Of a DNA stretch of 64,000 nt, positions 401 to 1,093 are shown piece by piece. How positions within the stretch are numbered: position 1 is the stretch's first letter; every line of letters starts with the position of its first letter. The stretch lies in NCBI RefSeq assembly GCF_054482525.1, contig NZ_CM137006.1, one strand, 5' to 3'. The position numbers were made by a program, and so were the translations under genes. The notes beneath the pieces are model-generated. The model was not told where the DNA came from, did no database searches, and saw nothing but the letters and a program-made list of their open reading frames with translations.

Positions 401-1093
401 ATGCCACATCACATTGTTATTGTTGAAGATGAGCCGGTTACCCAGGCGCGATTACAATCCTACTTCACTCAGGAGGGGTATACCGTTTCCGTTACGGCGA
501 GCGGTGCCGGGCTGCGGGAAATTATGCAGAATCAGCCGGTGGATTTAATTCTGCTGGATATCAATTTGCCCGATGAAAATGGCCTGATGTTGACCCGCGC
601 CCTGCGAGAACGCTCAACGGTGGGGATTATTCTGGTTACGGGACGCAGCGATCGGATTGACCGTATTGTTGGGCTGGAAATGGGCGCAGACGATTACGTC
701 ACCAAACCGCTGGAACTGCGCGAACTGGTAGTACGGGTGAAAAATCTGCTCTGGCGAATCGACCTCACGCGACAAGCTCAACCGCACACACAGGACAACT
801 GCTATCGCTTTGCCGGTTATTGCCTGAATGTGTCGCGCCATACGCTGGAGCGAGATGGCGAGCCGATTAAACTGACCCGCGCAGAGTATGAAATGTTGGT
901 GGCATTTGTGACGAATCCGGGCGAAATTCTTAGCCGTGAACGTCTGCTGCGTATGCTCTCTGCGCGTCGGGTGGAAAACCCTGACCTGCGCACCGTCGAT
1001 GTGTTAATTCGTCGTTTACGCCATAAACTCAGCGCGGATTTACTGGTGACGCAACATGGTGAAGGTTATTTCTTAGCCGCTGATGTGTGCTGA
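401..1093 (+). CDS. torR: TorR, OmpR-family response regulator of the TMAO reductase system
   Basis: 230-aa ORF MPHHIVIVEDEPVTQARLQSYF...[11 protein letters not shown]; receiver domain plus winged-helix output; length and sequence as remembered for E. coli TorR. ATG at 401. Confidence 0.97.
   Translation: MPHHIVIVEDEPVTQARLQSYFTQEGYTVSVTASGAGLREIMQNQPVDLILLDINLPDENGLMLTRALRERSTVGIILVTGRSDRIDRIVGLEMGADDYVTKPLELRELVVRVKNLLWRIDLTRQAQPHTQDNCYRFAGYCLNVSRHTLERDGEPIKLTRAEYEMLVAFVTNPGEILSRERLLRMLSARRVENPDLRTVDVLIRRLRHKLSADLLVTQHGEGYFLAADVC

What the first reader, a model, noticed from the sequence alone, without database searches (positions are those of the whole stretch)
1066..1093. torR and torT coding regions overlap convergently by 28 bp
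The 3' ends of torR (+) and torT (-) overlap, so neither gene has room for its own intrinsic terminator and transcription of each must run into the antisense of the other. This could couple their expression. Seen in the sequence; functional consequence unknown.
Basis: seen in the sequence. Interest (0 to 1): 0.15.

Follow-up and report, generated by a model that had tools for sequence, protein, structure and literature searches.

The report
torR–torT tail-to-tail 28-bp gene overlap
The ends of the two E. coli TMAO-sensing genes torR and torT really do overlap by 28 bases on opposite strands, but this is an annotated, conserved and fairly ordinary layout whose overlapping transcription is already published, and nothing shows that it regulates either gene.

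Summary
torR (401-1093, +) and torT (1066-2094, -) are real genes that share 1066-1093, which is 28 bp. RefSeq annotates the same overlap in E. coli PCN033 and K-12, and the junction is present in 5415 of 5426 complete E. coli genomes.

The overlap looks like a passive result of losing the intergenic spacer. TorT's conserved fold ends at residue 332. Its last residues, QHTSAAKK, are simply the antisense reading of TorR's conserved C-terminus, GYFLAADVC. The torT stop codon is the antisense of the TorR Gly222-Tyr223 codon junction. Third codon positions of both genes coincide, and the overlap varies like the adjacent torR-only sequence.

The 28-bp state also occurs in Citrobacter, Providencia, Enterobacter ludwigii and a lineage with 61% TorT identity. 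Edwardsiella and Serratia differ (7-nt gap, or 4, 21 and 54 bp).

Any complete mRNA of either gene must cross the overlap. Published data list torT-torR as a convergent excludon and place a Rho-dependent termination region about 430 nt past the torR stop, antisense to torT. I found no canonical intrinsic terminator. One marginal hairpin is supported only in Escherichia.

Regulatory coupling is untested. Both genes are expressed at low levels, and their RNA does not rise in RNase III mutants, which argues against a strong effect. Five of the 11 convergent pairs in this window overlap. Verdict: already known, low interest.

The parts
401..1093 (+). torR coding sequence (response regulator TorR, 230 aa; stop TGA at 1091-1093)
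   Evidence: ORF list; NCBIfam equivalog NF008034, 428 bits; RefSeq annotation
1066..2094 (-). torT coding sequence (periplasmic TMAO-binding protein TorT, 342 aa; stop TAA at 1068-1066)
   Evidence: ORF list; NCBIfam NF008185, 491 bits; RefSeq annotation
1066..1093 (.). The 28-bp shared segment. On + it encodes TorR (G)YFLAADVC and the stop. On - it encodes TorT (Y)QHTSAAKK and the stop. Third codon positions of the two genes coincide.
   Evidence: Read directly from the sequence; per-column codon-position table
1066..1068 (-). torT stop codon, which is the antisense of the third base of TorR Gly222 (GGT) plus the TA of Tyr223 (TAT). GGC-TA gives TAG in Citrobacter and Enterobacter.
1069..1098 (-). 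Codons for TorT residues 333-342 ([10 protein letters not shown]), a tail beyond the conserved periplasmic-binding-protein fold
   Evidence: Alignments to solved TorT (3o1h) and 4yhs stop at query residue 332. The tail varies freely wherever it does not overlap torR: Edwardsiella, Serratia, L021, L022.
1094..1161 (.). Candidate pause or terminator element: A-run TAAAAATA (1094-1101), imperfect hairpin (1102-1152), then GGCA and TTTTT (1157-1161). It lies 9 nt past the torR stop but inside torT, upstream of the torT stop.
   Evidence: Hairpin free energy (dG) -23.4 kcal/mol with z -2.7 on +, and -20.6 with z -1.6 on -. Liberal scans. Weak or inconclusive conservation.
1175..1350 (+). C-rich, G-poor stretch of the torR-sense RNA (C/G 1.5-2.6), resembling a Rho loading site (rut-like) and untranslated on this strand
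   Evidence: Sliding C/G counts
1525..1525 (+). Published Rho termination region (K-12 coordinate 1056830, torR-sense strand, antisense to torT), mapped into the window. The source method uses 800-nt windows, so resolution is coarse.
   Evidence: Adams et al. 2021, Supplementary file 2: read counts upstream/downstream of the site 39/14 untreated and 52/81 with bicyclomycin, Rho score 4.34, p 2.2e-5. Coordinate conversion.
371..371 (+). Published torR transcription start site (K-12 1057984) for a monocistronic torR unit. It lies within the tor boxes at 363-382.
   Evidence: SMRT-Cappable-seq Supplementary Data 2; tor boxes

Best explanation
The overlap is a passive structural consequence of losing the spacer between two convergent genes in an ancestor within Enterobacterales. 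The torT reading frame runs past its conserved end (...GFRPVY, residue 332) into the 3' end of torR. It stops at the first antisense stop codon in its frame, which is created by the conserved TorR Gly222-Tyr223 codons (GGY-TAY giving TAA or TAG). TorT's last eight residues are therefore a by-product of TorR's conserved C-terminus. The arrangement is stable for three reasons. Any indel inside the overlap would frameshift TorR. Only 6-12 nt of freely variable sequence lie between RPVY and the torR stop. The two genes' wobble positions coincide, so synonymous change is tolerated in both. In transcription, every complete torR or torT mRNA carries antisense sequence of the other gene. With no intergenic space and no canonical intrinsic terminator, readthrough is ended inside the partner gene. 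For torR-sense RNA this is done by Rho, on untranslated C-rich RNA a few hundred nt downstream. Regulatory coupling between the two genes is probably negligible at their low expression levels. What is shown: the anatomy, the conservation, the codon phase, the substitution pattern, the published transcript overlap and the published Rho region. What is inferred: the origin by spacer loss, the dispensability of the TorT tail and the weakness of coupling.
For: Stop-codon-defined overlap and gene identity. The fold homology of solved TorT and a related binding protein ends at residue 332. torR is convergent to torT in all 18 related genomes. The overlap is 28 bp in Escherichia, Citrobacter, Providencia and Enterobacter ludwigii, and in a metagenomic lineage with 61% TorT identity. 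Edwardsiella has a 7-nt gap or a 4-bp overlap, and Serratia has 21 or 54 bp. The TorR tail GEGY[FL]LAA[DE]V is conserved everywhere, whereas the TorT tail is conserved only where it overlaps torR. The three possible antisense frames through the torR end would give overlaps of 28, 21 or 65 nt, and 21 is what Serratia H1w shows. Variable columns in the overlap are 9/10 at position 3, 3/9 at position 1 and 1/9 at position 2. The adjacent torR-only codons give 9/10, 3/11 and 1/11. More distant TorT homologues have no adjacent torR, or a torR 1.27 kb away. There are no canonical terminators. The RNA past the torR stop is C-rich. A published Rho termination region lies antisense to torT. torT-torR is published as a convergent excludon. 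Expression is low, antisense reads are present, and sense RNA does not increase in rnc mutants.
Against: Exact conservation of 28 bp across lineages with only 61-76% TorT identity could also reflect selection for the overlap or for the TorT tail. The passive model explains it but does not exclude selection. Part of the apparent breadth may be horizontal transfer, because Providencia TorR is 85-89% identical to E. coli TorR. The Rho region is mapped coarsely and from low read counts. No 3' end of either gene was found in the Term-seq or SMRT-Cappable tables, so the real termination sites are unknown. All the expression data come from growth conditions in which the tor regulators are poorly expressed.
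Confidence: 0.8

Rival explanations
1. The overlap is a functional convergent excludon. Overlapping torR and torT transcripts form double-stranded RNA or cause RNA polymerase collisions, so that expression of one gene lowers the other and tunes the TorT:TorR or TorT:TorS ratio.
For: torT-torR is listed among 165 convergent excludons detected in at least 50% of 58 RNA-seq samples. Antisense reads are recorded in both genes, and low-level p19-captured dsRNA reads map to both. The arrangement is conserved across several genera.
Against: That listing follows almost automatically for any expressed pair with overlapping coding ends. [quoted passage not shown] Sense RNA of torT and torR does not rise in two RNase III mutants: torT 9.1 to 5.2 and 6.0 RPM, torR 17.8 to 12.8 and 9.2 RPM. 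Both genes are expressed at roughly 10-18 RPM against 813 RPM for talB, so by inference simultaneous opposing polymerases should be rare. Edwardsiella keeps the genes convergent with a 7-nt gap, and distant relatives have no adjacency at all.
Confidence: 0.12
2. The A-run, hairpin and T-run at 1094-1161 form a bidirectional terminator or pause element embedded in the torT 3' coding region. It ends torR transcripts about 65 nt past the stop. On the other strand it pauses or prematurely ends some torT transcripts about 25 nt before the torT stop codon.
For: The hairpin has a free energy (dG) of -23.4 kcal/mol and z -2.7 on the + strand. UAUUUUUAU follows the stem directly on the - strand. Against shuffles, the hairpin next to the T-run gives z of about -1.5 to -2.2 in the four Escherichia sequences. 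Some pairs show changes on both sides. Citrobacter species have a different hairpin abutting the same T-run. Published work describes non-canonical bidirectional terminators between convergent E. coli genes that position polymerase collisions.
Against: The simple terminator scan does not call it. On the + strand the T-run starts 4 nt after the stem. The RNAalifold consensus does not recover the hairpin, only 68.5% of cells pair, and the structure was derived from E. coli, which biases the count. There is no hairpin signal in Providencia, Enterobacter or L023, and no T-run in Edwardsiella or S. liquefaciens. The minus-strand U-tract is broken within Escherichia itself, reading TATTATTAT in E. 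albertii and E. whittamii. The T-run is explained by the TorT Lys-Asn codons. No Term-seq 3' end is reported there, and Rho-sensitive readthrough is seen farther downstream.
Confidence: 0.07

Closest known systems
Convergent (tail-to-tail) overlapping gene pairs of bacteria, thought to arise by stop-codon movement or spacer loss (for example the 75 convergent overlapping pairs counted in E. coli, PMC4161906)
   Same: Two real genes on opposite strands share their 3' coding ends. One gene's C-terminal extension runs to the first antisense stop codon. The pair is conserved among relatives.
   Different: Nothing essential differs. At 28 bp it is longer than the 4-bp overlaps seen at zapC/ycbX and yccX/tusE in this window, but shorter than sxy/yccS at 38 bp.
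Convergent excludons (overlapping 3' transcription of neighbouring opposite-strand genes; ExcludonFinder map of E. coli MG1655, PMC12288877)
   Same: torT-torR is itself listed in that map, and transcript overlap is unavoidable here.
   Different: The defining regulatory outcome, reciprocal expression and RNase III-dependent processing, has not been shown for this pair. The rnc-mutant RNA levels do not suggest it.
Bidirectional terminators between convergent E. coli genes, with termination assisted by polymerase collisions (Ju et al. 2019, as summarised in bioRxiv 10.1101/2022.10.23.513370)
   Same: The genes are convergent, there is no canonical intrinsic terminator, and a stem-loop-forming sequence sits at the boundary.
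   Different: The candidate stem-loop lies inside torT rather than between the genes. It is poorly conserved. The pair is expressed at low levels, and that work reports lower termination efficiency for such pairs.
Rho-dependent termination of untranslated or antisense RNA downstream of stop codons (Adams et al. 2021, PMC7815308)
   Same: A bicyclomycin-sensitive region antisense to torT lies on the torR-sense strand, preceded by C-rich untranslated RNA.
   Different: Only one direction (torR-sense) is documented. The position is coarse, being derived from 800-nt windows.

Membership tests
Convergent overlapping gene pair | Both partners are real protein-coding genes on opposite strands | tested here: met
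   NCBIfam equivalogs TorR 428 bits and TorT 491 bits; RefSeq annotations; homologues in 18 genomes
Convergent overlapping gene pair | The coding sequences share nucleotides at their 3' ends | tested here: met
   torR stop at 1091-1093 and torT stop at 1068-1066, sharing 1066-1093, which is 28 bp
Convergent overlapping gene pair | The overlap is conserved in relatives and is not an annotation or sequencing artefact | tested here: met
   28 bp in Escherichia, Citrobacter, Providencia, Enterobacter ludwigii and L023/L024; junction present in 5415 of 5426 E. coli genomes
Convergent excludon | Transcripts of the two genes overlap | tested here: met
   This is logically required for complete mRNAs. 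The pair is listed as torT-torR in the ExcludonFinder Table 1, and antisense reads occur in both genes. The evidence is from the literature, not from new data.
Convergent excludon | Reciprocal or mutually exclusive expression of the two genes | not testable with these tools
   This needs promoter perturbation or condition-resolved strand-specific expression data. No such data for this pair were found in the papers searched.
Convergent excludon | RNase III-dependent processing of the double-stranded overlap | tested here: inconclusive
   Only low p19-captured dsRNA read counts (5-29 RPM) and no named cluster in the files held. Sense RNA is not higher in rnc-14 or rnc-38.
Bidirectional intrinsic terminator | A stable G+C-rich stem-loop flanked by an A-tract upstream and a T-tract downstream | tested here: inconclusive
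   A long imperfect hairpin at 1102-1152 lies between TAAAAATA and (GGCA)TTTTT. z is -2.7 on + and -1.6 on -. The consensus scan does not call it.
Bidirectional intrinsic terminator | Lies downstream of both stop codons | tested here: not met
   It lies 9 nt past the torR stop but 34-86 nt upstream of the torT stop, inside the torT coding sequence.
Bidirectional intrinsic terminator | Structure conserved among relatives | tested here: not met
   RNAalifold does not recover it. Only 68.5% of cells pair. Signal is found only in Escherichia, is weak in Citrobacter and is absent elsewhere.
Rho-dependent terminator (torR-sense) | Readthrough increases when Rho is inhibited | tested here: met
   Adams et al. 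2021, Supplementary file 2: K-12 1056830 (-), Rho score 4.34, p 2.2e-5. The evidence is from the literature, with low read counts.
Rho-dependent terminator (torR-sense) | C-rich, G-poor untranslated RNA upstream of the termination region | tested here: met
   C/G of 1.5-2.6 at +81 to +260 past the torR stop

The most novel reading that the evidence does not exclude
In Escherichia, the A-run, hairpin and T-run at 1094-1161 may be a working bidirectional pause or termination element embedded in torT. It would end torR transcripts soon after the stop codon. On the other strand it would end a fraction of torT transcripts about 25 nt before the torT stop codon. The resulting non-stop mRNAs would help keep TorT at the very low, noisy level that underlies bet-hedging in torCAD expression.
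Probability: 0.05. Interest if true: 0.45.

Novelty: already known. Interest (0 to 1): 0.1.

Why it matters
It matters little for biology and somewhat for practice. The overlap has been in the annotation of every E. coli genome for decades, and the transcript overlap is already catalogued. The practical point is that any edit at the 3' end of torR (deletion, tag or fusion) also alters the torT stop codon and tail, and the reverse holds too. Published torT-lacZ fusion strains carry a torR deletion. Whether the overlap is the reason for that design is my inference. The small addition made here concerns the exact 28-bp state. It is fixed by TorR's conserved Gly-Tyr codons, sits in the phase where both genes' wobble positions coincide, and is shared by several enterobacterial genera. 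If the overlap did tune TorT or TorR levels, it would bear on the known stochastic, oxygen-dependent behaviour of the Tor phosphorelay. Current evidence does not point that way.

Tried and rejected
1. The first literature search, run without whole-word matching, returned only tortoise and torrent papers.
2. The original torT paper (PMC177790), Carey et al. 2018, Roggiani and Goulian 2015 and Ju et al. 2019 are not held. I therefore could not check whether the overlap was discussed when torT was first described.
3. The search for homologous proteins returned only near-identical E. coli TorT sequences and gave no diversity. The representative search and the genome scan provided diversity instead.
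4. Searches for mapped 3' ends found nothing for torR or torT. The Term-seq tables have no entry for either gene. SMRT-Cappable-seq has no transcript end near the junction. The supplements of a transcriptional-interference study do not mention either gene. No ExcludonFinder supplements are held.
5. A conserved embedded terminator is rejected as unsupported beyond Escherichia.
6. The terminator-like site at 1353-1335 (-) and the two promoter-like sites near 1151-1219 are at or below the number expected from shuffles, so I treated them as chance.
7. No Rfam family lies near the junction.

Full report
**1. The observation**

The window is E. coli. Positions 301-2200 are 100% identical to strain PCN033 and about 98% identical to most other complete genomes.

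The ORF list gives torR at 401..1093 (+, 230 aa) and torT at 1066..2094 (-, 342 aa). Both ends are set by stop codons: TGA at 1091-1093 for torR and TAA at 1068-1066 for torT. The 28-bp overlap at 1066-1093 therefore does not depend on which start codons are chosen.

Both products match their NCBIfam equivalog models far above cutoff. TorR scores 428 bits and TorT 491 bits.

RefSeq annotates the same overlap in PCN033 and in K-12 MG1655 (torT 1056261..1057289 +, torR 1057262..1057954 -). The K-12 sequence around the junction differs from the window at only 3 of 201 positions, none of them inside the overlap. An 86-nt probe across the junction finds 5415 of 5426 complete E. coli genomes, and both genes are annotated under every hit listed.

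**2. How unusual it is**

It is not unusual. A published count for E. coli gives 663 overlapping adjacent gene pairs, of which 75 are convergent (PMC4161906).

In the PCN033 annotation of this same 64-kb window there are 11 convergent pairs, and five of them have overlapping coding ends:

| Pair | Overlap (bp) |
|---|---|
| torR/torT | 28 |
| sxy/yccS | 38 |
| appA/cspH | 13 |
| yccX/tusE | 4 |
| zapC/ycbX | 4 |

**3. Anatomy of the overlap**

- **torR side.** The shared bases encode the last base of Gly222, then Tyr-Phe-Leu-Ala-Ala-Asp-Val-Cys and the stop. These are the end of the conserved winged-helix domain.
- **torT side.** They encode the last base of Tyr334, then Gln-His-Thr-Ser-Ala-Ala-Lys-Lys and the stop.
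- **The TorT tail lies beyond the fold.** Alignments to the solved Vibrio TorT structure (3o1h) and to a related binding protein (4yhs) both end at E. coli residue 332 (...GFRPVY). Residues 333-342 are an extension past the fold.
- **The torT stop codon.** It is the antisense of GG[T-TA]T, the junction of the TorR Gly222 and Tyr223 codons. GGC-TA gives TAG instead.
- **Codon phase.** Third codon positions of the two genes fall on the same nucleotides (28 = 1 mod 3). Most wobble changes are therefore silent in both genes.

**4. Comparative evidence**

A scan of one genome per species with TorT returned 18 loci. torR is convergent to torT in all of them.

| Lineage | Junction |
|---|---|
| E. 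albertii, two divergent E. coli, E. whittamii | 28-bp overlap |
| Four Citrobacter | 28-bp overlap |
| Three Providencia | 28-bp overlap |
| Enterobacter ludwigii | 28-bp overlap |
| Metagenomic lineage, TorT 61% identical (L023/L024) | 28-bp overlap |
| Three Edwardsiella | 7-nt gap |
| E. hoshinae | 4-bp overlap |
| Serratia H1w | 21-bp overlap |
| S. liquefaciens MAG | 54-bp overlap |

The TorR tail GEGY[FL]LAA[DE]V is conserved in every locus. The TorT tail is conserved (Q[HY]TSAAKK) only where it lies antisense to torR, and it is unrelated in sequence elsewhere.

Providencia and Citrobacter sp. On2M carry an in-frame 6-nt deletion just outside the overlap, which leaves the 28 bp intact.

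The three possible antisense frames through the torR end would stop after 28, 21 or 65 nt. Serratia H1w shows the 21-nt solution.

Among the 13 sequences with the 28-bp state, variable columns number 9/10, 3/9 and 1/9 at torR codon positions 3, 1 and 2 in the overlap. In the 32 nt of torR just upstream they number 9/10, 3/11 and 1/11. The torT tail therefore adds no detectable constraint.

More distant TorT homologues (45-47% identity) have either no adjacent torR or a convergent torR 1.27 kb away with two genes in between.

Together this fits a passive origin. The spacer was lost, torT ran on to the first antisense stop, and the state then froze. It froze because indels in the overlap would frameshift TorR and because the free target between RPVY and the torR stop is only 6-12 nt.

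**5. Transcription**

An mRNA that encodes full-length TorR or TorT must contain the overlap.

*Intrinsic terminators.*
- The consensus scan finds no terminator at the junction. Its single call, at 1353-1335 on the - strand, is within chance expectation.
- A more liberal scan of my own finds one candidate near the junction. It is an imperfect hairpin at 1102-1152, preceded by TAAAAATA and followed by GGCATTTTT.
- On the + strand the hairpin lies 9 nt past the torR stop, with a free energy (dG) of -23.4 kcal/mol and z -2.7. On the - strand the stem is followed directly by UAUUUUUAU, but this lies before the torT stop.

*Conservation of that candidate is poor.*
- RNAalifold does not recover the hairpin.
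- Only 68.5% of cells pair, and covariation is modest, on a structure that was derived from E. coli itself.
- A hairpin-next-to-T-run test gives z of about -1.5 to -2.2 in Escherichia and about -1.1 in three Citrobacter. It gives nothing in Providencia, Enterobacter or L023. Edwardsiella and S. liquefaciens have no T-run at all.
- The minus-strand U-tract is already broken in E. albertii and E. whittamii.
- The T-run itself is the TorT Lys-Asn codons.

I rate this element as, at best, a lineage-specific weak pause or terminator.

*Published data.*
- Adams et al. 2021 list a Rho termination region at K-12 1056830 on the torR-sense strand, classed as antisense to torT. Read counts upstream/downstream of the site were 39/14 untreated and 52/81 with bicyclomycin, giving a Rho score of 4.34 and p 2.2e-5.
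- That position maps to about window 1525, roughly 430 nt past the torR stop. It lies downstream of a C-rich, G-poor stretch (C/G up to 2.6 at about 1175-1350).
- Their Term-seq tables contain no torR or torT 3' end.
- SMRT-Cappable-seq reports a monocistronic torR unit starting at K-12 1057984, which is window 371. No transcript end is reported near the junction.
- ExcludonFinder (NAR 2025) lists torT-torR among 165 convergent excludons seen in at least 50% of 58 RNA-seq samples. It also lists zapC-ycbX, sxy-yccS and yccX-tusE, the other coding-overlap pairs of this window. This suggests that listing follows almost automatically for such pairs.

**6. Does the overlap couple expression?**

There is no direct test. 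The available numbers are from Huang et al. 2020, Table S1c:

| Gene | WT sense/antisense (RPM) | rnc-14 | rnc-38 |
|---|---|---|---|
| torT | 9.1 / 3.3 | 5.2 / 1.7 | 6.0 / 2.0 |
| torR | 17.8 / 1.8 | 12.8 / 1.4 | 9.2 / 1.6 |

Antisense RNA exists. Both genes are expressed at low levels (talB is 813 RPM in the same table). Removing RNase III does not raise either sense RNA. At such levels I infer that two opposing polymerases would rarely occupy the locus at the same time. Strong coupling is therefore unlikely under those conditions. Anaerobic conditions with TMAO have not been examined.

**7. Comparison with known systems, and novelty**

The feature is a member of the ordinary class of convergent overlapping gene pairs, and all defining features were tested and met.

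It is already catalogued as a convergent excludon in the descriptive sense of overlapping transcripts. The regulatory hallmarks of an excludon are untested or not supported.

It is not a bidirectional intrinsic terminator. The candidate hairpin lies inside torT and is not conserved.

The torR-sense readthrough fits Rho-dependent termination of untranslated antisense RNA.

Nothing here is new in kind. The modest additions are the explanation of why the overlap is exactly 28 bp, its wobble-aligned phase, and its distribution across genera.

**8. Verdict**

The feature is already known, with interest about 0.1.

The most novel reading not excluded is a working embedded bidirectional pause or termination element in Escherichia that also produces non-stop torT mRNAs. 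I give it a probability of about 0.05.

Noticed in passing
window 27540-27577; 7380-7392; 18964-18967; 42825-42828: Four further convergent gene pairs in the window have overlapping coding ends in the PCN033 annotation: sxy/yccS 38 bp, appA/cspH 13 bp, yccX/tusE 4 bp and zapC/ycbX 4 bp. With torR/torT, that makes 5 of the 11 convergent pairs in the 64 kb. Three of these four are also listed as convergent excludons in the ExcludonFinder table.
   Followed up: partly
window 320-329, 363-372, 373-382 (and TSS at 371): There are three perfect tor boxes (CTGTTCATAT on the - strand) in the torR-torC intergenic region. The published torR transcription start site (K-12 1057984, window 371) falls inside the adjacent pair of boxes. 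From my own knowledge, this fits the reported TorR autoregulation.
   Followed up: partly
L010, L012, L013 (Providencia loci): Providencia TorR is 85-89% identical and TorT 71-72% identical to the E. coli proteins, and the 28-bp junction is the same. That is high for Morganellaceae against Enterobacteriaceae and suggests horizontal transfer of the tor regulatory locus.
   Followed up: no
window 56314-57662 and 56092-56169: An IS3-family IS1397 transposase with a programmed frameshift is inserted between pepN and ssuB. An Rfam naRNA4 (CssrE) match lies directly next to it.
   Followed up: no
window 63983-64000 (record 1081328-1082401): ompF is annotated as a pseudogene with an internal stop in strain PCN033. 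Only its first 18 bases fall inside the window.
   Followed up: no
window 2095-2176: The 82-nt torT-torS divergent intergenic region is reported in the literature to hold the shared IscR operator and the phage HK022 attachment site (PMC6814406). The annotated torS start at 2177 is a GTG codon.
   Followed up: no
window 6628-7050 (-), 44546-44619 (-), 17594-17678 (+): There are Rfam matches to the cspA thermoregulator (upstream of cspG), the PyrD leader, and a tRNA (tRNA-Ser in the annotation).
   Followed up: no
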